This document shows, piece after piece, positions 14,960 through 56,474 of a stretch of DNA of 64,000 nucleotides. The DNA comes from Patescibacteria group bacterium. Lineage in GTDB: Bacteria; Patescibacteriota; Microgenomatia; Levybacterales; UBA12049. Positions within the stretch are counted from its first letter, which is position 1, and every line of letters starts with the position of its first letter. The notes under the pieces were generated by a model. That model ran no database searches, was not told the origin of the DNA, and saw only the letters and a list, made by a program, of their open reading frames with translations. The stretch spans positions 76,981-140,980 of the forward strand of contig JBBTTO010000002.1 in the NCBI GenBank assembly GCA_038064195.1, in the 5' to 3' direction. The position numbers and the translations under genes are program-made.

Positions 14960-17167
14960 TTATTGAGTAGGCCAGGGTTCAATCATGATCGATTCTCCAT
15001 GTCCGGGCATCTTCTGATAGATTTCCTCTGTTACAAATGGCATGAAGGGATGCAGGAGCTTAATAAGTATTACGTATAAAGTAGTAAGTATTAAGTATGA
15101 ATTATCATCCATACGGTTTTTAACGTCCTCAATATATTTATCAGCGAACTCATGCCAGATAAACTCATACAGTCTCTCAGCCGCTAAATTAAACTGATAG
15201 TCATCAATATACCGCGTTATCTCTTTTACCAGCTGCTCAACCTTGTCCACCCACTCTCTATCAGTCGTGTTTTTTGCAGTCTTCTTTAATTCTTCAATAC
15301 TTAATACTTGATACTCAATACTTGATACTCGTTTCATCTCCAAAAAGCGTGCCATATTCCACAGCTTATTAGTGAATTTACGAGCTGCGTCCAGCTTGGG
15401 ATATGAGAGACTCTGATCATTACCTGTCGCATTACCATAAATGAGAGCAAAGCGTACGGCATCAGCTCCGTATTGCTCAATAAGCTCGAGCGGATTAATG
15501 ACATTCCCCTTGCTCTTACTCATCTTCTTTCCCAACGGATCATTGACGATACCGTGGAAAAGTACGTCTTTAAAAGGCACTTCACCTGTTCGATAAATCC
15601 CGAGCATCGCCATACGCGATACCCAAGCACGCAAAATATCATAGGCAGTCTCCAAAACTGCGGTCGGATAAAACTTCTCAAAGTCGCCGGGCTTTGCCGT
15701 CTGAAGCGTCACATAGGGCCACTGACCACTGGAGAACCAGGTGTCAAAGGTGTCAGAGTCTTGTTCTAATTTAGTTGAACTGCAAACTGGACATTTCTCT
15801 GGCTTCTCCCCTTCAGTCACAATCCATTCAGAATTATTGCTAAATTGCTCTATTGGTTCATTGTTAATTGCTTTCGAGTTTTGACTTGTGGTTTTGCGCT
15901 TTGCGCTTTGCGCTTTTGGCTCACTGCAATCTCTGCAACGCCAGGCAGGGATGCGCATACCCCAGACAATTTGACGTGAGATATTCCAATCCCTGAGATT
16001 CTCGAGCCACTGGAAATACTGTGTCTCAAAACTCTTTGGATGAATCCGTATTTTACCTTCCTTAACTGCCTTGACCGCCTCGTTTTTAAGTGATTCGACT
16101 TTGACAAACCACTGTTCAAGAGGAAGTGGCTCAAGAACTGTTTTACATTTATAACAAAGCCCTACACGATTGATATACCCTTCATCTATTTTTTCAATTA
16201 GTCCTTTGGCATGCATTTCCTCAATAATTGCACTTCGGGCTTGCTTCACATAAAGCCCGGCGAACTTTCCCGCATGTTCATTGAGCTTACCATCGAACCC
16301 TATAACTTGTTTCATCAGCAAATCATGTCGCTTGCCTATCTCAAAGTCATTAAAATCATGTGCAGGAGTGACTTTAACAACACCTGTCCCAAATTCAGGG
16401 TCTACCGCCTCATCTGCAACAACTCTAATAGTAGCTTTACCTAACACAGTCTCTATTTCTATGTCTTTACCGACATATTGTTTGTACCGCGCATCTTCGG
16501 GATGTACTGCTACCCCCGTATCACCAAATTTTGTCTCAGGACGAGTCGTAGCTAAGACCAATGGCCCGTACTTAATATAATAAAGAGGACTGTTACGCTC
16601 TTCGTGGGTGACTTCCAAGTCGGAAAAAGATGTCCCGTCTTTCGTGCAATAATTGACTAGTTTATACGCACGATAGACGAGCTTGTCATCGTGCATTTGT
16701 TTGAAGGTCTGATAAACCAGTTTTTGTATATCCGGATCGAGGGTAAATTTCTCACGCGACCAGTCAAGTGAAAAACCGAGTTTTCGGAGTTGATTCTCTA
16801 TCTTGCCGCCTGATTCACTCACAAACTCCCAGATCATTTGATAAAGCTGTTCCTGCGTATAGTCAAAGCGAGACTTACCTTCACTTTGAAGCTTCTTCTC
16901 GTAAACAAACTGCGTTTCAATTCCCGCATGATCTGTCCCGGGCAGCCAAAGCGTACTATCCCCCTTCATGCGGTGATAGCGAATCAGGATATCCTCAACC
17001 GTGAACATGGCATGACCGAAATGCAGGTCGCCGTTAGCATTAGGCGGGGGAAGGATAATACAATAGGGCTTACCATCAGGATGAATCTCAGGCTTGAAAT
17101 AGCCTTTTTCTTCCCATGTTTTATAGTGCTTATCCTCAACGTCTTTGTGGTTGTAGACTTTATCCAT
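14960..17167 (-). CDS. valS: Valine--tRNA ligase (short form, no C-terminal coiled-coil)
   Basis: PPPNANGDLHFGHA, GTDHAGIETQ and KMSKSKGNVI are present. A Cys-pair insertion region carries a low-complexity KAQSAKRK stretch. Confidence 0.9.
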   Translation of the reverse strand: MDKVYNHKDVEDKHYKTWEEKGYFKPEIHPDGKPYCIILPPPNANGDLHFGHAMFTVEDILIRYHRMKGDSTLWLPGTDHAGIETQFVYEKKLQSEGKSRFDYTQEQLYQMIWEFVSESGGKIENQLRKLGFSLDWSREKFTLDPDIQKLVYQTFKQMHDDKLVYRAYKLVNYCTKDGTSFSDLEVTHEERNSPLYYIKYGPLVLATTRPETKFGDTGVAVHPEDARYKQYVGKDIEIETVLGKATIRVVADEAVDPEFGTGVVKVTPAHDFNDFEIGKRHDLLMKQVIGFDGKLNEHAGKFAGLYVKQARSAIIEEMHAKGLIEKIDEGYINRVGLCYKCKTVLEPLPLEQWFVKVESLKNEAVKAVKEGKIRIHPKSFETQYFQWLENLRDWNISRQIVWGMRIPAWRCRDCSEPKAQSAKRKTTSQNSKAINNEPIEQFSNNSEWIVTEGEKPEKCPVCSSTKLEQDSDTFDTWFSSGQWPYVTLQTAKPGDFEKFYPTAVLETAYDILRAWVSRMAMLGIYRTGEVPFKDVLFHGIVNDPLGKKMSKSKGNVINPLELIEQYGADAVRFALIYGNATGNDQSLSYPKLDAARKFTNKLWNMARFLEMKRVSSIEYQVLSIEELKKTAKNTTDREWVDKVEQLVKEITRYIDDYQFNLAAERLYEFIWHEFADKYIEDVKNRMDDNSYLILTTLYVILIKLLHPFMPFVTEEIYQKMPGHGESIMIEPWPTQ

Positions 17168-17226: not shown

Positions 17227-18537
17227 TTAGACACGCTCGGTGAGCATATAACCCCTGGTCCTTATCGTCCGGATTTCATACGGACTGGCTTGCTTCTTAA
17301 GCTTACTCCGGACACGGGCTACTAAGCGATCTATTGACCAGTCTGAGACACCGAATTCCTGGTACTCTGGCCAAACTGCCTCAATAATATCATCCCGCTC
17401 GCAAATCTCACCTGTATGCTCTTTAAGAAGGGTAAAAAGAAGATGCTCTTTTTTGCTAAAAACCAGCTCCCGATCCATTTTACCGACATGATGGAAGACA
17501 AGCGATACATACTGGGCAAAAAGCGGACTAAAAAGGCTTACTTTTTTCTTATTTGTCTCTACCATGCCCGTTTGAAAAATATAGTCTGCTTCTTTTTGTT
17601 CTTCATCACTAAGTTCTTCCTCTTGAAAGACTTTACCCACTGCTTCTTTCTCCACTGTGGTGAGACTTTCCCATAACTCTTCTGATTGCAGGGTTATCCG
17701 CTCATCCTGCACAAGAAGTGAAAAAAGTTGTTCCGGAGTATTTATGGTATCTTCTTTATGTTCATTAAGAATAATAAGAGCCAGCTGTAGATACTGAACA
17801 TATCCCCCTACCAATCTAAAAAGCTCCTGCTCTATCGTATCGCTAAAACTGAGACCGTAACGCTTTTTATAGTGATCTGCAATGACGCGTATATCGGATT
17901 GATTTGAGGGGCGGATATGTAATGTATGACAAAAGGCTGAAAGATCTGCCTTAGTGAATGCTTTAGGTGAAAGCGCGTCCAAACTTCTGAAGCTAGTAAA
18001 AACATAGGCTATCTTGCCATGGGATCCGTCGCGCAAGCCCTGAAGATTATCGAAGAACTCCGGTGTCACCACATCCTTAATACGGTCAAAACGAAGGAAA
18101 AACAACGTAGGATAGATTCCCTCTGCAACTATCATATTGAGAGAGCGACGAATACCGTCGATAAGTAAGAAAAGGTCGTTTGTCTGAATTGATGATAAAA
18201 ACGAGCTGGCAATTTTTTGCTGGACTACGGCTGGTAACTTTGAACGCTCAACCTCATCTATTATTCTTTTAAAAGTTAGGGTCCAGAAGGGATATAATTC
18301 CCGCTCCACCAGATCGTTAAGATCAACTCTGATAAAAAGATGCCCTTCGTCTTTACTGATAAATTTTGCTTTAACCTCCGGATGATAGAGAAAATAACGC
18401 AGGAAATTACTGATTCCAACTCGTTTCATACCAATTAAATCAACTGAATGACGATGATGAAGATGTTCACCTAAAACCTGGCTGTCTTCCTCACGAAAGC
18501 TCAACGGGTAGCCTAACTCATTACCTCCTATTTCCAT
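17227..18537 (-). CDS. Putative transcriptional regulator: degenerate P-loop NTPase-like N-domain fused to a C-terminal OmpR/PhoB-type winged-helix (Trans_reg_C) domain; paralog of 47977-49344
   Basis: The C-terminus IIEAVWPEYQEFGVSDWSIDRLVARVRSKLKK...IRTIRTRGYML matches the OmpR wHTH. The N-terminal GMKRVGISNFL aligns to the Walker A-like GLPGVGRSTIL of the paralog. Confidence 0.55.
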   Translation of the reverse strand: MEIGGNELGYPLSFREEDSQVLGEHLHHRHSVDLIGMKRVGISNFLRYFLYHPEVKAKFISKDEGHLFIRVDLNDLVERELYPFWTLTFKRIIDEVERSKLPAVVQQKIASSFLSSIQTNDLFLLIDGIRRSLNMIVAEGIYPTLFFLRFDRIKDVVTPEFFDNLQGLRDGSHGKIAYVFTSFRSLDALSPKAFTKADLSAFCHTLHIRPSNQSDIRVIADHYKKRYGLSFSDTIEQELFRLVGGYVQYLQLALIILNEHKEDTINTPEQLFSLLVQDERITLQSEELWESLTTVEKEAVGKVFQEEELSDEEQKEADYIFQTGMVETNKKKVSLFSPLFAQYVSLVFHHVGKMDRELVFSKKEHLLFTLLKEHTGEICERDDIIEAVWPEYQEFGVSDWSIDRLVARVRSKLKKQASPYEIRTIRTRGYMLTERV

Positions 18538-18622
18538 GAGGCTAATTCTAGTCTGTTTTTGTCAGTTTAGCAAGAAATATGTCTAGTATAGGCTTCTTGA
18601 GCTATGGTATACTCGATCCCAT

Positions 18623-19957
18623 ATGGCACGTCTTTTCAGTTCTCTCTCCGAACTTACAGAGCAAGCAACGGGTGCAATCGGGGATTTGAATGACCCCCTC
18701 ATCAGCAATCGGGCCATACTCCAGGCAACGCTTATTGACGATCTGGTCTACACCGCACTCTTCAGTCAGGACAAGGATCTTAAGCAGCAATGCGCAGATC
18801 TGATCTATCGCCTATCTGAATTAGCAGGCTGTCCATCCACCTCAATCTATGAACTCTACAAGGCTTTTGGTGAGCAAAAAGTTGAAGGCTTTACTGTCCC
18901 TGCAATCAATGTCCGCGCGCTCACCTATGATACAGCTCGTCTTATCTTTCGCCTGATGAAGGAGAAAAAAATCGGAGCCGTTGTTTTTGAGATTGCCCGA
19001 TCTGAGATTGAGTATACTCATCAACGCCCCCGGGAATACGCGCTGGCCGTATTGGCAGGGGCTATTAAGGAAGGGTATAAGGGGCCTGTTTTTTTACAAG
19101 GAGACCATTATCAATTCAGTAAAAAAAAGTTTAGTGAAGACCGGAACGCAGAAATAAACAAAATTAAAGATCTTATTAAAGAGTCAATTGAAGCACGCTT
19201 TTACAATATCGATATCGACGCATCAACACTTGTCGACCTGGATAAAGAGAGTCTGACTGACCAACAACAAAATAACAGCGACATGACCGCACTCTTAACT
19301 ACCTATATTCATCAGATACAGCCAGAAAATATAACCGTCTCAATTGGCGGTGAAATCGGACATATCGGCGGTAAAAATAGTACTGCCCAAGATTTTGAAG
19401 CCTTTATGGAGCTGTACCAGCAACAAATAAAAGATCGGGGCATTACTAAGGTCAGTGTCCAGACAGGAACAAGTCATGGCGGTATCCCCCTTCCTGATGG
19501 AACAATTCAGGAAGTCAGTCTGGATTTCTCAGTTCTTAAAGCTATCAGCAATCTTTGTCGCGAGAAATATCATATGGGTGGTTCTGTCCAACATGGGGCA
19601 TCAACTCTCCCACTCTCTGCCTTTGATCATTTTGTTGAAAATCTGACTCTTGAGATTCACCTGGCAACCGGCCTGCAAAATATTGTCTATGACACTATGC
19701 CTGCAGATCTTAAAGAAGAAATGTATGAATGGATAAAAACAAATTTAAGCACCGAACGCGAAGAGGGCTGGACTGATGACCAATTCATCTATAAAACCCG
19801 CAAAAAAGCCCTTGGACCCTTCAAACAAAGACTCTGGGATCTCCCGTATGCCGACAAAGAACCAATCATTGCCGGATTGACTCAGCAGCTCTCAACAATC
19901 TTTGAAAAATTACACATCTTTAATACAGAGACAGATGTCAAAAAATATGTCAAATAA
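18623..19957 (+). CDS. fba: Class II (metal-dependent) fructose/tagatose-bisphosphate aldolase family protein, long form
   Basis: VPAINVRAL, QGDHYQF, HMGGSVQHGAST and EIHLATG resemble class II FBA motifs. The gene is adjacent to fbp and pgk. Confidence 0.5.
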   Translation: MARLFSSLSELTEQATGAIGDLNDPLISNRAILQATLIDDLVYTALFSQDKDLKQQCADLIYRLSELAGCPSTSIYELYKAFGEQKVEGFTVPAINVRALTYDTARLIFRLMKEKKIGAVVFEIARSEIEYTHQRPREYALAVLAGAIKEGYKGPVFLQGDHYQFSKKKFSEDRNAEINKIKDLIKESIEARFYNIDIDASTLVDLDKESLTDQQQNNSDMTALLTTYIHQIQPENITVSIGGEIGHIGGKNSTAQDFEAFMELYQQQIKDRGITKVSVQTGTSHGGIPLPDGTIQEVSLDFSVLKAISNLCREKYHMGGSVQHGASTLPLSAFDHFVENLTLEIHLATGLQNIVYDTMPADLKEEMYEWIKTNLSTEREEGWTDDQFIYKTRKKALGPFKQRLWDLPYADKEPIIAGLTQQLSTIFEKLHIFNTETDVKKYVK

Positions 19958-20903
19958 ACCCCTTAGCCTGACAGAGTTTATTCTTAAGGAACAGCAGGCC
20001 TTCCCCAAAGCGCACGGCAACTTCTCACTTCTCATGGAACAGATTGAATATGCTTGTAAAATTATTGCAAGTCATGTCCGTCAGGCAGGACTGGTCGATA
20101 TTTTGGGGGTGACCGGTGAAAAAAACACGTTTCAGGACGAGGTAAAAAAAATCGATGTCTTCAGCAATGACCTCCTGATAGAGGTCCTCAAAACCTCCGG
20201 GCAAGTAGCGATGATCGCCTCTGAGGAACTGACAGAACCGATTGCCCTTAAGGAGAACGCGCCGTATATTGTATTTTTTGATCCGCTTGACGGGTCTTCC
20301 AATACCGATATCAATGCACCGATCGGAACAATTTTCTCAATATACCACACAAAGGGAGGACTCCTGCAAAAAGGTTCCGAGCAAGTAGCCGCAGGATACG
20401 TCCTTTATGGGACAAGTACGATATTTGTTTATACATCCGGGAAAGGGGTCAATGGATTTACTCTGGACCCGGCAATCGGCACATTTCTCCTTTCCCACCC
20501 GGATATTAAAATCCCCGAATTTAACAACCTCTATAGCGTTAATGAGGGAGAGAGTTTAACCTTTAATAAAACAACTCAAAAATTTCTCCATTGGATTAAG
20601 CAGTCCGATCCAACGACTAAACGCCCCTATAAACTCCGTTATATCGGGGCCATGATTGCGGACGTGCATCGCACACTCTTAAAAGGCGGACTTTTCCTCT
20701 ACCCTGCAACTGGGAAAAACCCCAAAGGCAAACTACGACTTATGTATGAGGCTAATCCGGCAGCTCTCATTCTTCGTGAGGCAGGAGGTCTGGCTTTTTC
20801 AGATAAGACTCCTATCCTTGATCTGATGCCGGAGCATGTCCATCAACAAGTCCCCGTTGTCTTAGGGAGTAAAGGTAATCTCGAAGTTTTCCAAGAATTT
20901 TAA
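19902..20903 (+). CDS. fbp: Fructose-1,6-bisphosphatase class 1
   Basis: LTEFIL...GNFSLLM and the metal-site FDPLDGSSN are present. The real start is probably an internal M near 19935-19947. Confidence 0.85.
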   Translation: MKNYTSLIQRQMSKNMSNKPLSLTEFILKEQQAFPKAHGNFSLLMEQIEYACKIIASHVRQAGLVDILGVTGEKNTFQDEVKKIDVFSNDLLIEVLKTSGQVAMIASEELTEPIALKENAPYIVFFDPLDGSSNTDINAPIGTIFSIYHTKGGLLQKGSEQVAAGYVLYGTSTIFVYTSGKGVNGFTLDPAIGTFLLSHPDIKIPEFNNLYSVNEGESLTFNKTTQKFLHWIKQSDPTTKRPYKLRYIGAMIADVHRTLLKGGLFLYPATGKNPKGKLRLMYEANPAALILREAGGLAFSDKTPILDLMPEHVHQQVPVVLGSKGNLEVFQEF

Positions 20904-20906
20904 TAT

Positions 20907-22088
20907 ATGCACTATATCGACGAGGCGCACTTACAGAATAAGCGTGTTTTATTACGCGTTGATTTTAATGTACCTATCAACAAGCAGCTAGAAGTTATCA
21001 ATGATGAACGCATTCGTCAATCGATCCCGACAATAAAATATCTATTAAGTAATAATAATCTCCCCGTTCTTCTTGCCCATCTTGGTCAACCAAAAGGGAT
21101 TGACAAGGCTCTATCTTTAGAGCCGATTGCAAAAAGATTGCAGGAGTTATTGCCGGATGTAAAAGTCATGTTTGTCCCGGATTTACAATCCGTACCAAGA
21201 GAAAATACCCGAAAGGGCATTACAAAAGTAATCGTTTTACTTGAGAATATCCGCTTTTTTGCAGGTGAGACAAATAATGATCCGGCATTTACCAAACAAC
21301 TCGCAGGCCTTGGTGATGTCTATATCAACGACGCCTTCAGTGTTTCTCATCGCAAAGAAGCATCTATTATCGGACTGCCTACCCTTCTCCCTGCCTTTGG
21401 CGGATTGCTGATGAAAAAAGAAATTGAGATGGTCCATAAGCTTTTGGATAATCCCGCACATCCCTTTGTCGCGATTTTGGGGGGGGCTAAAATCTCAACC
21501 AAAATTTCTTTTCTGAATAAACTTATTGAGATAGCAGATACCATACTCCTGGGTGGGGGCTTGGCAAATACCTTTTTACTTGCTGAAAATAAACAGGTCG
21601 GAGAAAGCTTGGCTGAAGCAGATGAAATTAACGCCGCCAGTGAGCTGCTTGCTTTAGCTAAAGAAAAAGGTAAACAACTCCTTCTTCCTACTGATGTCCT
21701 CATAGGGGAAAAAGACGCTAAACAAAGTCTAACAAAAGTAATTAATGAACTCTCTTCTAAAGATACAATTTTTGATATCGGTCCACAGACAGTCATCTTG
21801 TATACAGAAGTCATTGCTCAAGCTAAGACGCTTCTTTGGAATGGACCGCTCGGGTACTTTGAAAATCCTGCTTTTGCGCAAGGTACAGATGGAATCTTTC
21901 AGGCACTGGTAAACAATACCGGCGCGATCTCAGTTATCGGGGGTGGGGAGACAATCACCTCTATCGCAGATGAAACTGACCGCAATAAAATAACTCATAT
22001 CTCAACCGGTGGTGGGGCTCTCCTTGACTATATTGCGAATGGGACACTTCCGGGCATTGAAGCGCTCAACACGTCAGAATTGTCGTAA
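20907..22088 (+). CDS. pgk: Phosphoglycerate kinase
   Basis: KRVLLRVDFNVP and the hinge and C-terminal ATP-binding motifs GGGA and TGGGA are present. Confidence 0.95.
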   Translation: MHYIDEAHLQNKRVLLRVDFNVPINKQLEVINDERIRQSIPTIKYLLSNNNLPVLLAHLGQPKGIDKALSLEPIAKRLQELLPDVKVMFVPDLQSVPRENTRKGITKVIVLLENIRFFAGETNNDPAFTKQLAGLGDVYINDAFSVSHRKEASIIGLPTLLPAFGGLLMKKEIEMVHKLLDNPAHPFVAILGGAKISTKISFLNKLIEIADTILLGGGLANTFLLAENKQVGESLAEADEINAASELLALAKEKGKQLLLPTDVLIGEKDAKQSLTKVINELSSKDTIFDIGPQTVILYTEVIAQAKTLLWNGPLGYFENPAFAQGTDGIFQALVNNTGAISVIGGGETITSIADETDRNKITHISTGGGALLDYIANGTLPGIEALNTSELS

Positions 22089-42570: not shown

Positions 42571-42999
42571 GTGAAAAGTCGCGCTCCTTTAGATTCAGAA
42601 GGAAGTCTTTTTAACTTGACTTTTATTGACAAATCAGGGCACAATGAGAGCATGGACCAGATTACGCCTGAATATAAAGAACAGGTTCAGGGGCAGATTT
42701 TGAGCATTATGAGCGCGGCGCTTGAGGCAAATACTCTCAAGACAGATCAAACGCCTGTCATTGCCGGTTTTGTGAGAGAAAAAATTGAAGCAGTCCAAAC
42801 CCACGTTCAGTTAGTTGAATTCCTTGCAGAGCTTGCGCAAAAGTGGCCGATTTTTGCATCGCTTGGTAATATGGAGATGGGTCGCGCAATTGAGGCACAC
42901 AAGGGTGAATTCACCCATGGTGTCATAGATAAAGTCAAGTCAGGCGATATAGATGGAGCTCTTAAAATGGCTCAGGGGTTGACTCCCCATGCACAATAA
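42571..42999 (+). CDS. Hypothetical protein
   Basis: A 142-aa ORF whose end overlaps the next ORF by 11 nt. Confidence 0.35.
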   Translation: MKSRAPLDSEGSLFNLTFIDKSGHNESMDQITPEYKEQVQGQILSIMSAALEANTLKTDQTPVIAGFVREKIEAVQTHVQLVEFLAELAQKWPIFASLGNMEMGRAIEAHKGEFTHGVIDKVKSGDIDGALKMAQGLTPHAQ

Positions 43000-45079: not shown

Positions 45080-45427
45080 TTAAGAAGTTGGTGCGGGGCA
45101 GGTGTCAAAGCCGAAATTCTGGATACATTTGATGCCGATGATATTGGTGATGAAATAGAAAAGCACTATTGATGTCAGGACAATGATGAGGCCGATGAGA
45201 GCATAGGTCAGGATTTGGCGGGCTTCCTGGACTTGTTTGGTATCACCGCGTGAGACGATAAGTCTGATAGCCGCGTAAAGAATCAACGCTAGAGCTACTA
45301 TTCCGACAAAATAAAACGCCCAGTGGATGATTACTTGTAGAAAAGGCCCAATACACTTAAGTTGTGGTATAACACCGATTTTTTTACCAGTTGAATCAAA
45401 AGCATCTGCTGCACATGACCAGTTCAT
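45080..45427 (-). CDS. Small pilin-like protein (two hydrophobic helices separated by a short polar GDTKQVQEAR loop; VirB2/TrbC-like topology)
   Basis: It shares the TM - G(G)D/NxxKVxxAR - TM module with the three neighbouring paralogs. Confidence 0.45.
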   Translation of the reverse strand: MNWSCAADAFDSTGKKIGVIPQLKCIGPFLQVIIHWAFYFVGIVALALILYAAIRLIVSRGDTKQVQEARQILTYALIGLIIVLTSIVLFYFITNIIGIKCIQNFGFDTCPAPTS

Positions 45428-45473
45428 ATATTTACGTTAGCAAAGAAAGTAAGCAAGCACAATAGAGAAGAAG

Positions 45474-45884
45474 CTATTGAAGGAGTGAGGGCAAGGTAAA
45501 TGATCCAATGTCATTCCCGGTAAGGAGTTTAAAGACAAAGTTGATGACAAAGAATGATAAGAAGACGACTACGAGTCCGATAATTGCACCAACAATAGTG
45601 TTGCGAGCAGCCTCAACCTTCGTCTTATCACCACCAGCTGTAATCCATTTAAATCCACCAATAATGAGGAAAATTAACGCTGCAGCTGCACCGAGAAGAA
45701 GTAAAAGATTGAGGATTCTACTGAGCAGAGTTTGAGGGTCTGCTGAACTCGTTTTACAGAGACTATCAAATCCAGCCCCAGCAGGGCATAATTTTACAGT
45801 ACTGTCTGCAAAAGCGAGAGTGGCTACTGAAAGATAAAGAGAGGTTGCGGATACAGTAGCGATTAATTTTTGGGCAGATTTCAT
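45474..45884 (-). CDS. Pilin-like secreted protein (signal peptide, Cys pair, TM-GGDKTKVEAAR-TM module)
   Basis: IIGGFKWITAGGDKTKVEAARNTIVGAIIGLVVV is nearly identical to the motif in 45984-46361. Confidence 0.5.
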   Translation of the reverse strand: MKSAQKLIATVSATSLYLSVATLAFADSTVKLCPAGAGFDSLCKTSSADPQTLLSRILNLLLLLGAAAALIFLIIGGFKWITAGGDKTKVEAARNTIVGAIIGLVVVFLSFFVINFVFKLLTGNDIGSFTLPSLLQ

Positions 45885-45983
45885 AAATGTATTTAGTAAC
45901 TCTCTATCTATTTAGTCATATCTATTTTTACTTGTCAAGACCCATTTTCAAGCTGGAATTGTAAGAATATGGCTGAGGTATTA

Positions 45984-46361
45984 TTAACAAGGACTAGTAT
46001 TAGGTGATGAACAGTCCGGAGGATTTACGAGCATCGGGAAATTAAGAGAGCCTCCTGTGATCAGCTGGCCGACGAAGCCAATAATAAGGAAAGATAAAAG
46101 GGCTAATACTAGACCGACTATTGCATAGGTGAGTGTCCCACGCGCTGATTGAACTTTGGTCTTGTCACCGCCGGCTGTAATCCACTTGATGCCAGAGATG
46201 ATAATAAAGATGAGTGCTAAAACGAAGATAAAGAATAGGGCTACCTGAACTGCACGTTCTGCAATAATAATAAATATAGGTAGTCCACCTGTAGGTATCC
46301 CCTCGGGAACAGCTATTTTCTGGTTATCAATTGCGAGAGCGAGTAAGTGCTGCATAAGCAT
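45984..46361 (-). CDS. Pilin-like protein paralog (TM-GGDKTKVQSAR-TM)
   Basis: IISGIKWITAGGDKTKVQSARGTLTYAIVGLVLALL is present. Confidence 0.5.
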   Translation of the reverse strand: MLMQHLLALAIDNQKIAVPEGIPTGGLPIFIIIAERAVQVALFFIFVLALIFIIISGIKWITAGGDKTKVQSARGTLTYAIVGLVLALLSFLIIGFVGQLITGGSLNFPMLVNPPDCSSPNTSPC

Positions 46362-46373
46362 AGTGTATAGGAA

Positions 46374-46751
46374 TTAGTGCTCAGTGTGTAGTAGGCGCAT
46401 TTTTCGGACCAGTGAATTGAGCATGCGCAGTACTTCCTCAAGTAATGGAGTTATCTTTTCAAACTGTTCTTTAGATATATAGGTAAGCTCGTGACAAATG
46501 ATCAGCTGTGTCTCTAGCTCTAAAGCTGACCCATATGCTATCGCGTAAAATTGCGCGAACTCCCTAGATGATTTTCGGCCATATCCTTCGGCAATATTTG
46601 AGGGTATAGATACTGCAGCCCGTCGCATTTGCGAGACTAGACTATACATTTCATGATTGGGAAACCTTGATGTGATTTGGTAGATAGCCTTTACAAGCAA
46701 TATAGATTTTTGCCATACAATAAGATCCTTATAATTATGAATCTCACTCAT
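46374..46751 (-). CDS. Four-helix-bundle protein (family often encoded in 23S rRNA intervening sequences; TIGR02436-like)
   Basis: The 125-aa protein contains LIVWQKS...SIPSNIAEGYGR...ELETQLII, matching this family. Confidence 0.65.
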   Translation of the reverse strand: MSEIHNYKDLIVWQKSILLVKAIYQITSRFPNHEMYSLVSQMRRAAVSIPSNIAEGYGRKSSREFAQFYAIAYGSALELETQLIICHELTYISKEQFEKITPLLEEVLRMLNSLVRKMRLLHTEH

Positions 46752-46788
46752 CTTTGTGGTTTCTACACACTAATAACTACACACTTGC

Positions 46789-47958
46789 CTACTTAGTCAG
46801 TCCCGGGAGGTTGAGGAGATCAACTCCTATTACTTCCAGAATAATGATTGAGAGAACCAAAAACAAGAGGCCGACAAAGACAGAGGTGAGGCGTTCCCTG
46901 GCCTCTTTGACTTTCTCAGGATTGCCTTGAGAGGTCATGAGTTGATAGCCGCTGCGGATGATGAGAAGGAGGGCTATCCCGCCTGAGATACTCAGGAGGA
47001 TTGCAAAAAGCTGCCCGATAAAGCTAAAGGAGTCTGTATTAAGAGGTCCTATCGCACTCCAGATAGAAGTACAACCTTCGTTGGTGTTAAGTGTTTGAGC
47101 GCAAGGAGGAGGTGGGGGAAGAGGAGTTGGCGTAGGAAGACTCTTAGCTTGGTTAATCCAGATAGTAATTGGCTCAAGATATTGGTCATTGTCTCCATAA
47201 AGCACAATAGAGGTTGTCCCCTTACTAAAATCCTTTGGAAGAGTAAATATTACGCTACCACATGCATCCGTGTCGCATTTGGCTGTAGCGATTGCAGGTT
47301 CACCAAGAGCAGTTAAAACCAGATATTCTTTACTCGATGCGCCAGTAAGATGGATGCCGATGTCTTCTCCTGGTTGGGCAGGGTTATCTACCGCATTCGT
47401 CCTCCCATTCGTATTAAAAGCATCGATCATTTTATGATCAGTTGAGCCGCCACTCCCTTTGGTGACCACCGTAAATTTGTCTGCGGCAGGCGTGTCAGTG
47501 CCTTCCGAAGGTATTTTGTACACGCAGACGTGTAAGGTATTACTTCCATCATTTATATTATCCCCAATCTCTTGAGTACTTACCTGCCCTGAAAATGTAT
47601 TATTTGAACAAGAGGTATTGGTGAAATGCTGCGATGTTTTGTCGGGATCCATAATACATGTTCCATCGTCTGCTATACCAACTGTTTCTTGTGCAATAAT
47701 TATAGGTGCGGTGGTCTCGCAGGTCATGTTAGGGCCAAGAAGATTAATTACGTATGCCTCCGACTTTGGAATATTACCTAGCGAGATGTTGATAGGGTTG
47801 GGGTAGGTTACCGTCTGGTCGACTGAGAGGTTGCCCTGCATGCCTCCAACTGCTTCAGCAGTAAAGACCACCAGTGGATAAGGAATGATTATGCCTACTA
47901 AAAAGATGAGGGAATAGGAAAAACTTAGCAGGGATTTTTTCATACTTGTAATTATCAT
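46789..47958 (-). CDS. Pilin-like protein with a large N-terminal extracellular domain and Pro-rich linker (candidate tip or adhesin pilin)
   Basis: A signal peptide and ~280-aa N-domain are followed by a PTPTPLPPPPP linker and the shared C-terminal TM-QGNPEKVKEAR-TM module. Confidence 0.45.
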   Translation of the reverse strand: MIITSMKKSLLSFSYSLIFLVGIIIPYPLVVFTAEAVGGMQGNLSVDQTVTYPNPINISLGNIPKSEAYVINLLGPNMTCETTAPIIIAQETVGIADDGTCIMDPDKTSQHFTNTSCSNNTFSGQVSTQEIGDNINDGSNTLHVCVYKIPSEGTDTPAADKFTVVTKGSGGSTDHKMIDAFNTNGRTNAVDNPAQPGEDIGIHLTGASSKEYLVLTALGEPAIATAKCDTDACGSVIFTLPKDFSKGTTSIVLYGDNDQYLEPITIWINQAKSLPTPTPLPPPPPCAQTLNTNEGCTSIWSAIGPLNTDSFSFIGQLFAILLSISGGIALLLIIRSGYQLMTSQGNPEKVKEARERLTSVFVGLLFLVLSIIILEVIGVDLLNLPGLTK

Positions 47959-47976
47959 ACGAGGTTAGAGGATTGT

Positions 47977-49344
47977 TTGCAATTTCTAGGTTTGGTGATG
48001 AAAGTATATTACAATAGTAGTATGGAATCGAAATACTTTGAGTCTCTTTATCCAGTAGAGGCGCGGGATCAGGAGCTCGAAAAAATTGTCGGGTATATCC
48101 GCGAAGGGGTCTCCTCTCAGGTAGTCGGATTGCCCGGAGTCGGGCGGAGTACCATACTCGGGCTTTTGGCATACAATCGTGAGATTCGTCTTCGGCATTT
48201 TCCCAAGTATCACGGAAGTATTCATTTCGTCATGGTCAATTTTTCAGAGGTCAAGACTCGCCCATACCCAGAAGTTGTCAAATTCCTCTTCCTGTGCCTG
48301 AGTAATTCACTGCGCGAGCGGGAAATGCCTGAGGAGTATGAACATGTAGATACGTTATTCAAAGAGGCTTTGAATTATAATGATGAGTTGGTGATCAGTC
48401 AGGGCCTCAAAAATGCTATCGAGTATCTGGCGGTTGAGAGGAAATTGACGCTGGTATTATTGTTTGATCGTTTTGATGAGTATATCCCTCAGGTATCCAT
48501 GGAGTTTTTTACGCTTCTCCGCAGCCTTCGGGATCGGGCCAAATATCGTTTTTCAGTGGTCTTTTCACTCGACCGTCCCCTTGAGGAGACAGTAGAGCCC
48601 TCCTTAGTGGCAGATTTCAGCGACTTTATCAGCGGACATGTGATCTATCTTCCGCTTCTTGATGAGCCAAGTAGCTCCTTCAGGCTATCCTATCTGGAGA
48701 AATTAACTGCCAAGACATTGTCTGTTGAGCAAAAAAAAGAGGTCCTAAGACTGACTGCCGGCCATATTCGACTCCTCAAAGTCGCAGCTGAGGCGATGCT
48801 AGCTGAAGGTACGATACCGGCTGATATTGAGGCATTTTTACTTTCGCAAAAGACTGTCCATGGAGCGCTCATGAGCATCTGGAAGAGTCTGACTCCAGGT
48901 GATCAAGTCGATTTAAGTAAGGGTGAGATCCATGACCACCAGGGGGAGAGTTATTTACAAAAGGTGGGTCTTTTGGAGGGGGACCGGATTACGATTCCGC
49001 TTTTCGCCAAAGCGCTTGCGGACAAGCTTTTTCAGGAAAATGAAGCCAAAATAGTTTATGACGAGGCGGCAAATATTATCAAAAAAGGTGATCTAGTCCT
49101 CTCAGACAGCCTGACCAAGGCTGAGTTTCGTCTCCTTCGCTATTTGCTCCAGCACCCACAGGAGATCGTGGATCGTGAGACGGTGATCAGTGAAGTTTGG
49201 CAGGAGGCAAAGACTACACTTGGTGTGACTGAGCAGGCTGTCGACCAGCTGATTTTTCGTCTCAGGCATAAGATTGAAGAAGATCCCAATAATTCAAGGC
49301 ATTTGTTAACTATAAAAGGAAGAGGAATAAAATTTATGCCTTGA
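47977..49344 (+). CDS. Putative regulator: P-loop NTPase-like domain (Walker A with Arg in place of Lys, GLPGVGRST) plus a C-terminal OmpR/PhoB-type winged helix; paralog of 17227-18537
   Basis: The C-terminus VISEVWQEAKTTLGVTEQAVDQLIFRLRHKIEE...LLTIKGRGIKF matches the Trans_reg_C family. The N-domain resembles AAA/ORC-like ATPases. Confidence 0.55.
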   Translation: MQFLGLVMKVYYNSSMESKYFESLYPVEARDQELEKIVGYIREGVSSQVVGLPGVGRSTILGLLAYNREIRLRHFPKYHGSIHFVMVNFSEVKTRPYPEVVKFLFLCLSNSLREREMPEEYEHVDTLFKEALNYNDELVISQGLKNAIEYLAVERKLTLVLLFDRFDEYIPQVSMEFFTLLRSLRDRAKYRFSVVFSLDRPLEETVEPSLVADFSDFISGHVIYLPLLDEPSSSFRLSYLEKLTAKTLSVEQKKEVLRLTAGHIRLLKVAAEAMLAEGTIPADIEAFLLSQKTVHGALMSIWKSLTPGDQVDLSKGEIHDHQGESYLQKVGLLEGDRITIPLFAKALADKLFQENEAKIVYDEAANIIKKGDLVLSDSLTKAEFRLLRYLLQHPQEIVDRETVISEVWQEAKTTLGVTEQAVDQLIFRLRHKIEEDPNNSRHLLTIKGRGIKFMP

Positions 49345-49389: not shown

Positions 49390-49755
49390 ATGACCCAAGA
49401 ACAAATTACAAAACTTTATGATTTAGAAGAACGAACATTTGTGTTTGCGAAAGACACGAGATCGTTTGTTAAAAAGCTCCCCAAAACAGTAGGTAACATC
49501 GAAGATGGCTCACAACTCATCCGTTCTTCTGGCTCGGTAGGCGCTAATTATATCGAGGCAAATGAAGCATTTAGCAAAAAGGACTTTCTAATGAGAACAA
49601 AGATTTGTAGAAAAGAAGCAAAGGAGAGCAGGTTTTGGCTACGTCTGGTAGATACAAAAGACGATCCTCTACTTGAAAAGGAAAGAATAAGGTTAATAGC
49701 TGAGGCAACAGAATTGATGAATATTTTCGGTGCGATTATTAGAAAATCTGAATAA
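49390..49755 (+). CDS. Four-helix-bundle protein (23S IVS protein family), second copy
   Basis: The 121-aa protein contains GSVGANYIEANEAFSKKDF, typical of the family. Confidence 0.65.
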   Translation: MTQEQITKLYDLEERTFVFAKDTRSFVKKLPKTVGNIEDGSQLIRSSGSVGANYIEANEAFSKKDFLMRTKICRKEAKESRFWLRLVDTKDDPLLEKERIRLIAEATELMNIFGAIIRKSE

Positions 49756-49939: not shown

Positions 49940-52900
49940 ATGAATGAACGTTTGACTTCGGAGGCTGCTACCACGTATGCTAAAGATGGAGAATTGTTTA
50001 TGGCCTCAGAAAACACCAAAGACCAAGAGAATCAGCCCTGGGATCCAATCGAGACTCCTTTAACTATAGCTAACGTCATGGATATCCCGGTTAAGACGAG
50101 AGAACAGCTTGAGGCAAAAGCTGCCTGGAGTCAGTTATATGGCGGGAAGATGCCAAATGATCCTACCGAGCGGCAGATGCTAGGGGATTCGATTCGAGAT
50201 GGGAAGCTCCCTGATGCCTCAATGCGCTCGGCAGGCAGACAGGACTCCGCAACCCAGCGTGAGCGCGAGGCACGTCAAAATACTGATCGGGATCCACAAC
50301 GAGTCCAAGAAGGGAAAAGAACAAAAAGCAATAGAAAAGAGCAACTGCACCGCCCTGAGGATGACGGCCCACAAATTACTCGGGATATGACCGAGGAGCA
50401 ACAACAGGCCGAAATTGCCCGTTGGCAAGCCAGCATGGACACTCTACTGAGGCAGGAGATGGCCAATCCCAACAAAGATAGGACATATTTTGAAGTTATG
50501 GGGGATCGGTTCAACCAGCGAAAAAGTTGGTCAGAGGACCCAAGTACGGCAGATTCGCTTGAGCGGGAGTTCCAAGCGCAAAACAAACGGTTCAGTGATC
50601 GAGAGGCAGCAATTGAGTTCCTTGTGAAGCAAGGCTTTCGCCGAGAGGAAATTACTGATGAGCAGGTGGATTTGGCTATCGACCAAATCCAGGAATCCCT
50701 CACTATCCCCAGCAGAATGGAGAGGATAAAGGAGCAGATTCTCAAAACGGATGACCTGAAAGTAGCCCGTAATCTGTTTGAGAGGCTGCGTAACTATGTG
50801 CGAGAGATCAATGATAGTAGTCAGGCGCCCGGTAGTAAGCTCCAGCTTAAAGATCAAACACGGACAACGTTGCAAAAAATAGCCAATCTTGGAGAAAGCG
50901 ATCTTGATACCCTCGAAAAAGTTAGGGCGCAGACGCAACGTATTCTGGCTGATGATCCGAAAGCAGGCTTAAATATCAAAAATTTCTTCTTTGAGGCTGA
51001 GACGGTTGATACAAAGAGGCGTGGTAGTAGAGGGGTACAAATCCGCTCGCTTGAGGAATTAGTCGAACTCATCGCTGAGTCCCAGGGAGGCAAGTTCTCT
51101 GCGGGCGGGGAATTTGAGATCATGAATGAGCGGGGCGAGATCCAGCTGCAGAATCTCGTTGCCTGGATTCGTCAAAGGATTTTAACCCTCCATGAAAATG
51201 AGCCAGATGATCCGATCAACACCTTTACCAATATCGCAGTTCCAACTTTTTTCCGTCAAATTAGTCTTAATGAAATGTTTTTGACACCAACCTACTTCCA
51301 GAAGAGAAAAATGGTAATTGAAGGTTCAGAAGAAAAGGGCAACCTTTCTATGCGTCAGGAAAGTGTTGATGATCAGCAGTATGAGAATTTTAAGATGAAC
51401 CTTCTCTATGAGTCATGGCTTTTTGGTGTCTCGCATAGTAATAATGCTGAGTATCGAGCAGTACGTGGGCAGGAAGAGCCTCTTTTTAACAAAATCGCCT
51501 CGCTCTATACCAAAAATCATTTCACCAAAGATCGCAATCGTTTCTTAAATATCTTCAGCCTTGCTAAAGTTGATAAAAGTGAATTTGATGCTGTAGGTAA
51601 AAAAGAAGAACAGGGGAGTGTTGGTAAGGCGATACAGAGAGGAGTCTTGGCTTACTATCACCTGTGGGAGTTAGTAGCTGAGAATAAAGTCAAAAGAGGT
51701 AGAGATGGTAAGCCTCAGAAAGGCAAGGATGGTAAGCCTATTTATGATCTAAGTCAAGGTGATATCACCAAAATAGAAAATAACAATTTCTATTCTACCT
51801 TGGGAGAGGATGGGACGAAGTATTTCTATCATTCAATTGTAGATCAACTCTTAACAGCCAAAGGCAAAATTGAGCTTGACTTTAAAGAGGCTTTAGGCGC
51901 TCTTGCAAGTGATCTGACACGTGGCGAGAGTGAGAAAGATCTCACGGATCTAGAGCTAGTCTTTAAGCATAAGAGAGATAAGTTCGATGCATTTATGACA
52001 ACACAGTTGGATATGAAGCCTGAGGATATAGCTAAATATGAGAGTAGCCCACGTGATTTCGCTACAGTTGTGATGGACAAAGTTTGGGCAATCAAACATA
52101 AAGACTTAAATATCTTTGATGATGTCAATAAGGAGCAGCGGATTATTAGCTTAGTCAATCATGCTGTTTCCTCAGCTATTGGAAGAAAAGAGGGGCTAGG
52201 TGTTCAGGACACAGAATACGCCGGAGAGTGGGCCTATACGATGCGAGACTGGACAGGGATAGCAGCACGTAATGATACCAGTGGTATTGGCTTTGATGCC
52301 TGGTCTAAGCTTATCAATTTCCAAGATTACAGAGGTCGTCAGGGGCGAGGAAGAAGTGGGGCTGGCAATATGTACAATTTTCCTGGATTTAAGCGTTTGG
52401 GGGCAACACTGCTTGATGGGTTGTTGGTACGTATTGATGGGGACGAGCGGAAAGATGAGAACAAGAAGTCTCTGATTAGCGTTTTGGAAGAATCCAATCG
52501 TAACAATACCAGGCTGAAGACTTTTGATTTTGATGGTGAGGCGATGAGACAGTTCTCGGCCAATCATATTAACAATGCCTTTAAAGTCTTTCAATTTATT
52601 CTTGAGAAGATGGAGACCAAGATGAACTCAATTGTCTCAATTGATAGAGCAGGAAGACCGGTCTTCAATCATGAAGCAGCTTTGCAGATCATGGATGGTC
52701 TTTGGCATGACCTCAGATACGCTTTTGATCAGCCCCGCTTTAATTTTGACACCACGGTTATTGAAGGCTGGGAAAATAGAACTGTCTATGATGCTAAAGG
52801 GAAGCCTGTTTTTGATGATGAGGGGAAGCTAGTCATGGAGCGTGTCAAGACCAATCAGTCGATGCGCCATCATATGTTCGGCGATGAAATGATAGAGCTG

Positions 52901-53299
52901 GGGCATAAAATGCATCATCGTGATATTACGAAGAATGCTTGGGGAAGGCAAATGGGGCGTTCGGCTTTTGCCTATTTGGTTGCTAAGGAAATATTTGCCC
53001 ATCGTCAATTTAATAGTGGGTATGTGAAATGGCCGGTTGAGCAGATAGAGTTGATTCAAGCTTTCTTCCACCATCAAGCATTAGAATTTGGTCAAAAAGG
53101 TGAACAGGATTATGATATGAAGATCTTTGCGGAGTTTTTCGATCATCATGAGTGGAAAGAGATTCTAGGTTTGGCTAAGTCGAGCTATCTGAGGATGTAT
53201 ACCGGAGAATATGCTGCGCAAGGAGCGGGTCTGGTTGGGGGAATGATAGGCAAGACAATTGGTGAGACTATCAAGCAGGTTGCAACGGTAGCTAAGTAG
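49940..53299 (+). CDS. Giant (1119 aa) hypothetical soluble protein with no P-loop and no recognisable catalytic motif; candidate T4SS-associated or effector protein
   Basis: A long uninterrupted ORF with coding-like composition, convergent on the VirB6-like gene. Confidence 0.45.
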   Translation: MNERLTSEAATTYAKDGELFMASENTKDQENQPWDPIETPLTIANVMDIPVKTREQLEAKAAWSQLYGGKMPNDPTERQMLGDSIRDGKLPDASMRSAGRQDSATQREREARQNTDRDPQRVQEGKRTKSNRKEQLHRPEDDGPQITRDMTEEQQQAEIARWQASMDTLLRQEMANPNKDRTYFEVMGDRFNQRKSWSEDPSTADSLEREFQAQNKRFSDREAAIEFLVKQGFRREEITDEQVDLAIDQIQESLTIPSRMERIKEQILKTDDLKVARNLFERLRNYVREINDSSQAPGSKLQLKDQTRTTLQKIANLGESDLDTLEKVRAQTQRILADDPKAGLNIKNFFFEAETVDTKRRGSRGVQIRSLEELVELIAESQGGKFSAGGEFEIMNERGEIQLQNLVAWIRQRILTLHENEPDDPINTFTNIAVPTFFRQISLNEMFLTPTYFQKRKMVIEGSEEKGNLSMRQESVDDQQYENFKMNLLYESWLFGVSHSNNAEYRAVRGQEEPLFNKIASLYTKNHFTKDRNRFLNIFSLAKVDKSEFDAVGKKEEQGSVGKAIQRGVLAYYHLWELVAENKVKRGRDGKPQKGKDGKPIYDLSQGDITKIENNNFYSTLGEDGTKYFYHSIVDQLLTAKGKIELDFKEALGALASDLTRGESEKDLTDLELVFKHKRDKFDAFMTTQLDMKPEDIAKYESSPRDFATVVMDKVWAIKHKDLNIFDDVNKEQRIISLVNHAVSSAIGRKEGLGVQDTEYAGEWAYTMRDWTGIAARNDTSGIGFDAWSKLINFQDYRGRQGRGRSGAGNMYNFPGFKRLGATLLDGLLVRIDGDERKDENKKSLISVLEESNRNNTRLKTFDFDGEAMRQFSANHINNAFKVFQFILEKMETKMNSIVSIDRAGRPVFNHEAALQIMDGLWHDLRYAFDQPRFNFDTTVIEGWENRTVYDAKGKPVFDDEGKLVMERVKTNQSMRHHMFGDEMIELGHKMHHRDITKNAWGRQMGRSAFAYLVAKEIFAHRQFNSGYVKWPVEQIELIQAFFHHQALEFGQKGEQDYDMKIFAEFFDHHEWKEILGLAKSSYLRMYTGEYAAQGAGLVGGMIGKTIGETIKQVATVAK

Positions 53300-55388: not shown

Positions 55389-55500
55389 AGTCTTAGTGTG
55401 CGTGATTTGAGGTTTTCTGTCAAGTTAGGCGGAACATAAGAAATTTTAACAAATTTCAACGTTCCAGCCACGTTTAAATTTCTAGCGAAATTTATTACGT

Positions 55501-55590
55501 GGCGGAGAGAGCGAGATTCGAACTCGCGGAGGGCGTGAACCCTCAGATGTTTTCAAGACATCCGCACTAGACCACTATGCGACCTCTCCG
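55501..55590 (-). tRNA. tRNA-Ser (anticodon UGA), class II with long variable arm, CCA encoded
   Basis: Hand-folded: acceptor ggagagg/cctctcc, anticodon loop cuUGAaa, variable arm tgagggttcacgccctccg, T-loop gttcgaatc. Confidence 0.8.
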
Positions 55591-56469: not shown

Positions 56470-56474
56470 CTTGA

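What the first reader, a model, noticed from the sequence alone, without database searches (positions are those of the whole stretch)
47977..49344. Paralogous regulator pair: degenerate P-loop NTPase fused to a C-terminal OmpR-type winged helix
ORFs 47977-49344 and 17227-18537 share the same architecture and alignable blocks (LVLLFDRFDEYIP...FFTLLRSLRD versus LFFLRFDRIKDVV...FFDNLQGLRD). In both, the OmpR/PhoB DNA-binding domain sits at the C-terminus, and the usual receiver domain is replaced by an AAA/ORC-like domain. The Walker A lysine is Arg in one copy (GVGRST) and lost in the other (GMKRVGISN), which suggests nucleotide sensing or scaffolding rather than ATP hydrolysis. One copy sits inside the T4SS-like locus next to the pilin genes.
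Basis: seen in the sequence. Interest (0 to 1): 0.6.

Follow-up and report, generated by a model that had tools for sequence, protein, structure and literature searches.

The report
STAND-type winged-helix regulator pair

Summary
ORF A (47977-49344 +, real start probably ATG 48022, 440 aa) and ORF B (17227-18537 -, 436 aa) are full-length paralogs (22% identity, E 5e-25). Both end in a Trans_reg_C (OmpR/PhoB) winged helix that scores above Pfam's threshold.

- A-clade: Walker-A Lys is Arg in 108 of 109.
- B-clade: Lys is Ile in 112 of 113, and the Walker-B Asp is lost.

Each paralog keeps its own neighbourhood. A abuts the T4SS pilin array in 73 of 81 species loci. B precedes valS in 47 of 49. 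B's upstream regions carry 11-bp-phased CTGACA direct repeats in many lineages, an operator signature typical of the OmpR family.

Best reading: these are one-component, STAND-gated transcription regulators, a new variant of the MalT/AfsR kind. DNA targets, nucleotide binding and oligomerisation remain inferred.

The parts
48022..49344 (+). Regulator A (440 aa; the mechanical ORF starts at TTG 47977): STAND-type NOD plus C-terminal OmpR/PhoB winged helix.
48127..48153 (+). A P-loop GLPGVGRST (residues 36-44), with Arg42 at the Walker-A Lys position.
   Evidence: R42 is invariant in alignment A1. R in 108 of 109 A-clade clusters.
48454..48480 (+). A Walker-B region LLFDRFDEY. Asp149 is kept; the next residue is Arg150 instead of the catalytic Glu/Gln.
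   Evidence: (DR in 96 of 115).
49108..49332 (+). A Trans_reg_C winged helix-turn-helix (residues 363-437).
17227..18537 (-). Regulator B (436 aa), a paralog with the same architecture.
18406..18432 (-). B degenerate P-loop GMKRVGISN (residues 36-44), with Ile42 at the Walker-A Lys position.
   Evidence: Invariant in alignment A3. Ile in 112 of 113 B-clade clusters.
18082..18108 (-). B Walker-B-equivalent region LFFLRFDRI. The Asp position is Leu148.
   Evidence: [LI]R in 116 of 120.
17242..17472 (-). B Trans_reg_C winged helix-turn-helix (residues 356-432).
47954..48021 (.). Divergent control region between the large pilin gene and regulator A. It holds a pilin promoter-like site (minus strand: -35 TTGCAA 47982-47977, -10 TATGAT 47959-47954) and the regulator A -10 box TACAAT at 48010-48015, 6 nt before the ATG.
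   Evidence: TACAAT(A) is enriched upstream of regulator A across species.
45080..47958 (-). T4SS pilin array, the presumed target of A: pilin genes at 45080-45427, 45474-45884 and 45984-46361, and the 389-aa pilin-domain protein at 46789-47958. A 23S_rRNA_IVP gene lies inside the array at 46374-46751.
   Evidence: Pfam T4SS_pilin hits. Adjacency to regulator A in 73 of 81 species loci.
18545..18573 (-). B promoter-like site (TTGCTA, 17 nt, TAGAAT). Its spacer holds a tandem CTGACA / CAGAC pair, the best match in the whole window to the 11-bp-phased repeat found upstream of B in other species.
   Evidence: Family-wide phasing. The site is not conserved in the nearest relatives.
14960..17167 (-). 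valS, the conserved downstream same-strand neighbour of B. It has its own TACAAT box 8 nt before the ATG.
   Evidence: Follows B in 47 of 49 loci. Sequence.
18623..22088 (+). Class II FBP aldolase, FBPase and PGK, transcribed divergently from B.
   Evidence: A divergent PGK, FBA or FBPase gene is upstream of B in 24 of 47 loci.

Best explanation
A and B are two anciently duplicated one-component transcription regulators of a Levybacteria (Patescibacteria) genome. Each has a STAND-class nucleotide-binding/oligomerisation module (P-loop core, helical lid, winged helix; related to nSTAND1). This module is fused directly to a C-terminal OmpR/PhoB-type winged helix-turn-helix, with no receiver domain and no repeat-type sensor domain.

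Shown here: the architecture; homology to canonical Walker-A/B relatives; clade-wide degeneration of the ATP site (A: Lys to Arg and catalytic Glu to Arg; B: Lys to Ile and Walker-B Asp to Leu/Ile); and a separate, strongly conserved gene neighbourhood for each paralog.

Inferred: as in MalT and AfsR, the NOD holds the DNA-binding domain inactive or monomeric. On a signal, it drives the side-by-side multimerisation that OmpR-type domains need to occupy phased direct repeats.
- A probably still binds a nucleotide or phosphate ligand, because Arg and Lys interchange within the T4SS-linked clade and the Walker-B Asp is kept. It probably hydrolyses little. It probably controls the adjacent T4SS pilin array, which in half of the species is the operon it heads.
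- B has lost canonical Mg-NTP binding and works as a pseudo-NTPase scaffold. It probably binds the 11-bp-phased (A/T)ACCTGACAAA repeats found upstream of its own gene, giving autoregulation and perhaps control of neighbouring promoters.
For: - Paralogy: E 5e-25.
- Trans_reg_C scores above threshold in all 54 aligned members, and the PDB profile search hits only OmpR-family DNA-binding domains.
- The family profile reaches 684 clusters (50% identity) at E <= 1e-30. Distant members keep GxxGxGK[ST] and hhhhD[EQ]FD and pass Pfam nSTAND1 (30-43 bits against 27.1).
- Motif census.
- A abuts the pilin array in 73 of 81 loci, co-directional in 39 and divergent in 34. A-type relatives that keep Lys are also next to pilin, VirB4 or PrgI genes.
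- B is followed by valS in 47 of 49 loci.
- A and B co-occur on the same contigs.
- Upstream of B, repeat spacings of 11, 22 and 33 nt occur 19, 9 and 8 times against 0.6, 0.3 and 0.4 expected, on one strand only.
- For AfsR, the NOD and TPR inhibit the OmpR-type DNA-binding domain and ATP binding relieves this (PMC10936776).
- There is no defence-system match.
Against: - No binding, nucleotide or oligomerisation data exist.
- No operator was found for A in the divergent arrangement that the window has. k-mer enrichment returned only -35 and -10 boxes. The phased TTGAYA/TTAYA/TTACAAT element is limited to about 10-12 related loci and coincides with the core promoter.
- The B repeat array is seen in 19 of 50 lineages only. 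In the window it lies inside the promoter spacer and is not conserved in the closest relatives. The same element also occurs elsewhere, so a different factor could bind it.
- The loci are phylogenetically related, so the counts overstate independence.
- A and B themselves do not reach any Pfam NTPase threshold.
- Arg at the Walker-A Lys position abolishes function in many engineered ATPases, so A may not bind nucleotide at all.
Confidence: 0.6

Rival explanations
1. Both paralogs are nucleotide-independent scaffolds. The NOD fold survives only as a constitutive oligomerisation platform, so A and B are unregulated, or regulated only through their abundance, as DNA-binding factors.
For: The canonical Lys is missing in both. 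The catalytic Glu/Gln is replaced by Arg in both clades. There is no sensor repeat domain. Leaderless-type promoters with possible autoregulatory repeats would allow control through abundance.
Against: In the A-clade the P-loop glycines, Ser/Thr and Walker-B Asp are still conserved, and Arg alternates with Lys among T4SS-linked relatives. That pattern is expected if a phosphate ligand is still bound.
Confidence: 0.2
2. A is not a transcription factor. It is a DNA-handling accessory of the Patescibacteria T4SS, for example a substrate-DNA or origin-like recognition factor that stands in for the missing relaxase or coupling functions.
Against: Paralog B has the same architecture in a housekeeping context with no T4SS genes. 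Trans_reg_C is essentially a transcription-factor domain, and its recognition helix is conserved. A has no membrane or T4SS-interaction domain. Its ATP site is degenerate, which fits poorly with a motor or loader.
Confidence: 0.1
3. The pair belongs to a STAND-based conflict or defence system (NLR-like or Avs-like), with the winged helix as an effector or sensor.
For: Canonical relatives match nSTAND1, a clade first described in conflict systems. One relative is fused to TCAD9 and TIR, and another is next to a TCAD9-receiver gene.
Against: A and B have no PADLOC match, no toxic effector domain and no variable sensor. They are single-copy, hold syntenic core-genome positions in more than 100 species, and sit next to housekeeping or T4SS genes.
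Confidence: 0.04

Closest known systems
MalT / LAL-type STAND transcription activators
   Different: MalT has a LuxR-type HTH, a large SUPR/TPR-like sensor arm and a canonical ATP site. A and B have an OmpR-type winged helix, no sensor domain, about half the length, and a degenerate Walker A/B.
AfsR and large SARP regulators (OmpR-type DBD + BTAD + NB-ARC NOD + TPR)
   Same: This is the only well-studied case of an OmpR/PhoB-type winged helix gated by a STAND NOD. The NOD inhibits the DNA-binding domain until ATP binds, and the domain binds direct repeats as a side-by-side dimer (PMC10936776; bioRxiv 10.64898/2026.09.02.748808).
   Different: The domain order is reversed (DBD N-terminal in AfsR, C-terminal here). 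A and B have no BTAD and no TPR. The NOD belongs to a different STAND clade (related to nSTAND1, not NB-ARC). The ATP site is not canonical. The lineage is Patescibacteria rather than Actinomycetota.
OmpR/PhoB-family response regulators
   Same: The C-terminal Trans_reg_C fold and recognition-helix pattern are the same. B's upstream regions carry 11-bp-phased direct repeats like pho or OmpR boxes.
   Different: There is no receiver domain and no phospho-acceptor. Dimerisation control must come from the NOD.
Pfam nSTAND1 (PF20703) NTPases of conflict systems
   Same: Full-length homologs of A and B with canonical motifs pass the nSTAND1 threshold. The NBD, lid and winged-helix layout is the same.
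   Different: A and B do not reach the threshold themselves (best E 0.014 in 6 of 54 members). They lack effector and sensor domains and are housekeeping-type regulators.
Archaeal PABY2304 / SSO1545-type ATPases and Orc1/Cdc6
   Different: Sequence identity is 8-16%. They have no OmpR-type domain. A genuine dnaA is present in the window.

Membership tests
OmpR/PhoB winged-helix DNA-binding domain (Trans_reg_C, PF00486) | Match to the family HMM above the curated threshold. | tested here: met
   64.9 bits (A) and 53.3 bits (B) against 26.2. All 54 aligned members match.
OmpR/PhoB winged-helix DNA-binding domain (Trans_reg_C, PF00486) | Winged-helix fold superposable on solved OmpR-family DNA-binding domains. 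| tested here: met
OmpR/PhoB response regulators (two-component systems) | N-terminal receiver (Response_reg) domain with a phospho-acceptor Asp. | tested here: not met
   No Response_reg hit. Residues 1-335 fold as an AAA+/STAND module.
STAND NTPases (NOD module) | NBD, helical domain and winged-helix domain fold. | tested here: met
STAND NTPases (NOD module) | Canonical Walker A GxxxxGK[ST]. | tested here: not met
   A has GLPGVGRST (Arg in 108 of 109). B has GMKRVGISN (Ile in 112 of 113).
STAND NTPases (NOD module) | Walker B hhhhD[DE]. | tested here: not met
   A has hhhhDR (Asp kept, second acidic residue replaced by Arg). B has hhh[LI]R (Asp lost).
STAND NTPases (NOD module) | Nucleotide-dependent oligomerisation switch. 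| not testable with these tools
   Needs biochemistry (binding, SEC-MALS, cryo-EM).
Pfam nSTAND1 (PF20703) | HMM score at or above the gathering threshold (27.1 bits). | tested here: not met
   A and B are not listed at E <= 1. 6 of 54 family members have weak hits, best E 0.014. Distant full-length homologs P0361-P0383 pass with 30-43 bits, so the link is transitive only.
AfsR / large SARP regulators | N-terminal OmpR-type DBD plus BTAD, then NB-ARC, then TPR. | tested here: not met
   The DBD is C-terminal. There is no BTAD, NB-ARC or TPR Pfam hit.
MalT / LAL regulators | C-terminal LuxR-type HTH and a SUPR/TPR sensor domain after the NOD. | tested here: not met
   The C-terminus is Trans_reg_C. 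The proteins end about 100 residues after the NOD winged helix.
Anti-phage STAND systems (Avs / bacterial NLR-like) | Match to known defence-system models, with effector and sensor domains. | tested here: not met
   PADLOC gives only a 17-bit VakA fragment for A and nothing for B. The core-genome synteny is conserved.
Orc1/Cdc6- or DnaA-type initiators | Sequence membership and a role as the replication initiator. | tested here: not met

The most novel reading that the evidence does not exclude
A-type proteins are the dedicated switch of the Patescibacteria type IV secretion/pilin apparatus. A minimal NLR-like NOD with an arginine P-loop senses a nucleotide or host-derived cue and turns on the pilin-PrgI-VirB4 operon needed for epibiotic attachment. 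B-type proteins are true pseudo-NTPases that have turned the same switch into a nucleotide-independent autoregulator acting on 11-bp-phased CTGACA boxes. Together they would be two of the few global regulators in these reduced genomes, and a natural series from active STAND, to bind-only, to dead.
Probability: 0.3. Interest if true: 0.7.

Novelty: new variant of a known kind. Interest (0 to 1): 0.5.

Why it matters
Patescibacteria have very few recognisable transcription factors. How they control the T4SS and pilin machinery is unknown, although this machinery is essential for epibiotic growth in cultivated relatives (as cited in PMC12102498).

A regulator that sits next to the pilin array in essentially every Levybacteria genome examined gives a concrete, clonable handle on that question. 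Candidate DNA targets are short, defined intergenic regions.

The family also offers a natural evolutionary series of a STAND switch: canonical Lys/Asp-Glu, then Arg P-loop, then fully degenerate. This series is attached to the simplest possible output, a DNA-binding domain, which makes it useful for understanding how NLR-like NODs work without hydrolysis.

The N-terminal module is not covered by any Pfam model at threshold, so these proteins are currently annotated only as 'winged helix-turn-helix domain-containing'.

Tried and rejected
- Sequence search of PDB with the family profile found nothing for the N-domain, only C-terminal hits.
- The afdb50 fold library was unavailable.
- PADLOC gave no meaningful hit.
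- The Rfam scan of the window found only tRNAs, and no riboswitch or T-box near valS.
- Tandem Repeats Finder found nothing relevant around A.
- k-mer enrichment upstream of regulator A returned only promoter hexamers (TACAATA, TTGATAT). No operator was found for the divergent arrangement. A 'TGCAA' theme there is explained as the -35 box (TTGCAA) of the opposing pilin promoter.
- Inspection of the other T4SS intergenic regions of the window gave no shared motif.
- The CTGACA pair inside the window's B promoter was considered as an autorepression site. It is kept only as a lead, because the nearest relatives lack it.
- Literature searches found no description of this architecture or of a T4SS-linked regulator in Patescibacteria.
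- The ORC-like initiator idea was rejected because dnaA-dnaN are present.

Full report
**What is there.** The window encodes two ORFs of the stated kind. A is at 47977-49344 on the plus strand (455 aa from TTG). B is at 17227-18537 on the minus strand (436 aa). The true start of A is most likely ATG 48022, giving 440 aa. The evidence is an identical 440-aa protein in the public collection, the N-terminus then matching B, and a TACAAT box six bases upstream. A family HMM finds only these two ORFs in the 64 kb.

**N-terminal module.** Pfam gives only sub-threshold AAA_16, AAA_22 and AAA_35 hits. AlphaFold2 models built on a 54-sequence alignment are confident (A: pLDDT 88.4, pTM 0.76; B: 90.4, 0.77). 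Both show the same order of elements: a beta-alpha-beta P-loop core (to about residue 210), a helical lid (about 215-262), a winged helix (about 269-335), then the OmpR-type domain.
- Next come plant NB-ARC NLRs (15.9 / 17.7), CED-4 (13.8 / 15.8), SSO1545, Orc1/Cdc6 (about 14-15) and MalT (11.8 / 14.8).
- The receiver domain of classical OmpR-family proteins is therefore replaced by a STAND/ORC-type NOD.

**The ATP site is degenerate, and this is a derived state.**
- In the A-clade, the P-loop is G-[LI]-P-G-x-G-R-[ST], with Arg42 invariant in the 26-sequence alignment. Arg occupies the Lys position in 108 of 109 of the top clusters. The Walker-B stretch is hhhhD-R in 96 of 115.
- In the B-clade, the loop is GMKRVGISN, with Ile at the Lys position in 112 of 113. 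The Walker-B Asp position is Leu or Ile in 116 of 120.
- A profile search of 1.84 billion representative proteins finds 684 clusters at E <= 1e-30.
- Among the 116 full-length representatives, 63 are B-like and none has Lys. 28 are A-like: 19 Arg, 8 Lys, 1 Gln. 27 belong to neither clade, and 24 of these have canonical GxxGxGK[ST] with hhhhD[EQDG].
- Those canonical relatives pass Pfam nSTAND1 (30-43 bits against 27.1) in addition to Trans_reg_C. At least one cluster comes from Chloroflexota/Anaerolineae.
- A and B themselves do not reach the nSTAND1 threshold, so membership is transitive.

**Genomic context.** Around A lie a VirB4-like ATPase, PrgI, TrbL/VirB6, three small T4SS_pilin genes and a 389-aa pilin-domain protein. 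That last gene is transcribed divergently from A across about 60 bp.
- A scan of one genome per GTDB species found 134 species with an A-type gene. In 81 loci examined, A is directly next to the pilin array in 73. It is divergent, as here, in 34. In 39 it is co-directional as the first gene of a pilin-PrgI-TraC-like-VirB4 string, often with gaps of a few bases. The other 8 are almost all contig ends.
- More distant A-type relatives that still carry Lys are also next to pilin genes or to VirB4/PrgI. The T4SS link is therefore older than the Lys-to-Arg change.
- B has a different conserved context. It is followed by valS on the same strand in 47 of 49 testable metagenome loci. It is preceded by a divergent PGK, aldolase or FBPase gene in 24 of 47.
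- A and B occur together on the same contigs in at least six cases, about 30 genes apart. In the window they flank the dnaA-dnaN origin region. This agrees with the reported origin-proximal position of Patescibacteria T4SS genes (PMC12102498). That paper and its supplements do not mention such a regulator.

**Candidate DNA targets.** Regulator A, regulator B, the large pilin gene, the aldolase gene and valS all have -10 boxes 6-10 nt before the ATG, which indicates leaderless-type mRNAs.
- Upstream of B, 50 non-identical regions from different lineages show a core [ACT][TA]GAC (unit consensus AACCTGACAAAA) recurring at 11, 22 and 33 nt. The counts are 19, 9 and 8 against 0.6, 0.3 and 0.4 in control windows, with none on the opposite strand. 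The arrays lie mostly at -50 to -95 from the ATG. This is the classic layout of OmpR/PhoB-family operators.
- The array is present in only 19 of 50 lineages, the lineages are related, and similar arrays occur elsewhere in some loci.
- In the window itself, the best tandem match in the 64 kb lies inside B's promoter spacer (18545-18568). It is absent in the closest relatives.
- For A, no operator emerged in the divergent arrangement. A three-unit phased element, TTGAYA-N5-TTAYA-N6-TTACAAT, overlaps the promoter in 10-12 co-directional loci whose proteins are a median 59% identical. I treat this as a lead only.

**How it most likely works.** The shown parts are the architecture, the derived loss of catalytic residues, and the two conserved neighbourhoods. 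The rest is inferred from established STAND biology. MalT multimerises on inducer plus ATP. In AfsR, the NOD and TPR inhibit an OmpR-type DNA-binding domain until ATP binds, and that domain binds direct repeats side by side (PMC10936776).
- I propose that the NOD replaces the receiver as the device that controls multimerisation of the winged helices.
- A probably keeps a phosphate-binding pocket, given Arg/Lys interchange, conserved glycines and Ser/Thr, and the retained Walker-B Asp. It would act as a bind-only switch for the adjacent pilin/T4SS genes.
- B has lost both the Lys and the Mg-coordinating Asp. It is a pseudo-NTPase scaffold, probably autoregulatory.
- Confidence is about 0.95 for the architecture and about 0.5 for the regulatory assignments.

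**Rivals.**
- Both copies could be pure scaffolds.
- A could be a DNA-handling T4SS accessory rather than a transcription factor. The operon position supports this. Against it are paralog B in a housekeeping context and the nature of Trans_reg_C.
- The pair could have a defence-system role. nSTAND1 relatives are linked or fused to TCAD9 and TIR. However, there is no PADLOC hit and the core synteny is stable.
- An ORC-like initiator role is rejected because dnaA is present.

**Comparison and novelty.** Functionally the closest systems are MalT/LAL (same domain order, different DNA-binding domain, with a sensor arm) and AfsR/large SARPs (same DNA-binding domain type, opposite order, with BTAD and TPR). 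Neither family's defining features are met. The proteins are not response regulators, since they have no receiver.
- I found no description of a NOD followed by a C-terminal OmpR winged-helix architecture, nor of a T4SS-linked regulator in Patescibacteria, in the searchable literature. Databases call these proteins only 'winged helix-turn-helix domain-containing'.
- I rate the finding as a new variant of a known kind (STAND-gated transcription regulators). Its interest is moderate: a clear candidate regulator for a machine central to the epibiotic lifestyle of the candidate phyla radiation, and a natural series of ATP-site decay in an NLR-like switch.

Noticed in passing
window 46374-46751 (-) and 49390-49755 (+); loci L016, L021-L024, L051, L055, L057, L069, L074 and others: Small 23S_rRNA_IVP / bAvd-like four-helix-bundle genes sit at variable intergenic positions inside the T4SS locus, often directly flanking regulator A. 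In other species they are followed by short AT-rich periodic DNA (for example CTAGTTGCTAGT..., TTTGAATTTTGA...). They look like a small mobile or selfish cassette.
   Followed up: partly
window 28999-33403: The window contains the replication-origin neighbourhood: yidC (28999-29853, -), dnaA (30654-32036, +) and dnaN (32291-33403, +). B lies about 13 kb to one side and A with the T4SS locus about 16 kb to the other.
   Followed up: partly
B-upstream regions of L095-L166; window 18545-18568 (-): 11-bp-phased direct repeats (unit AACCTGACAAAA, often three units beginning GCTTGAC) lie upstream of B in 19 of 50 lineages. They also occur at other upstream positions in L120, L128, L143 and L163, which suggests a small regulon or a shared operator.
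   Followed up: partly
window 48010-48024, 18537-18550, 47940-47959, 18600-18625, 17167-17178: Regulator A, regulator B, the large pilin gene, the aldolase gene and valS all have TACAAT-, TAGAAT- or TATACT-like -10 boxes only 6-10 nt before the start codon. This implies leaderless or near-leaderless mRNAs as a common mode in this genome.
   Followed up: partly
P0369 (1784 aa); L168:3987-7368: Outside the candidate phyla radiation, the canonical nSTAND1 plus Trans_reg_C module is fused to TCAD9 and TIR domains, or follows a receiver-TCAD9 gene next to histidine kinases. This links the ancestral family to signalling or conflict systems.
   Followed up: no
window 49940-53299 (+), 35375-38491 (-), 42989-45040 (+): Large conserved proteins of the T4SS locus (1119, 1038 and 683 aa) have no Pfam or PADLOC match. 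The 1119-aa gene is syntenic between regulator A and VirB6 in many species.
   Followed up: no
window 55500-59405: There is a cluster of six tRNA genes (four tRNA-Ser and two tRNA-Arg isoacceptors) next to the VirB6-like gene. They are interleaved with short ORFs and a P-type ATPase gene.
   Followed up: no
L143:4800-4925: A ~130-nt GC-rich insert (cattgcgagcgtagcgaagcc...cgcgatgacaagc) separates the CTGACA array from B's promoter in one lineage. Toxin-antitoxin genes and an AAA_14/DUF4143 gene are inserted upstream. It is possibly a miniature mobile element.
   Followed up: no
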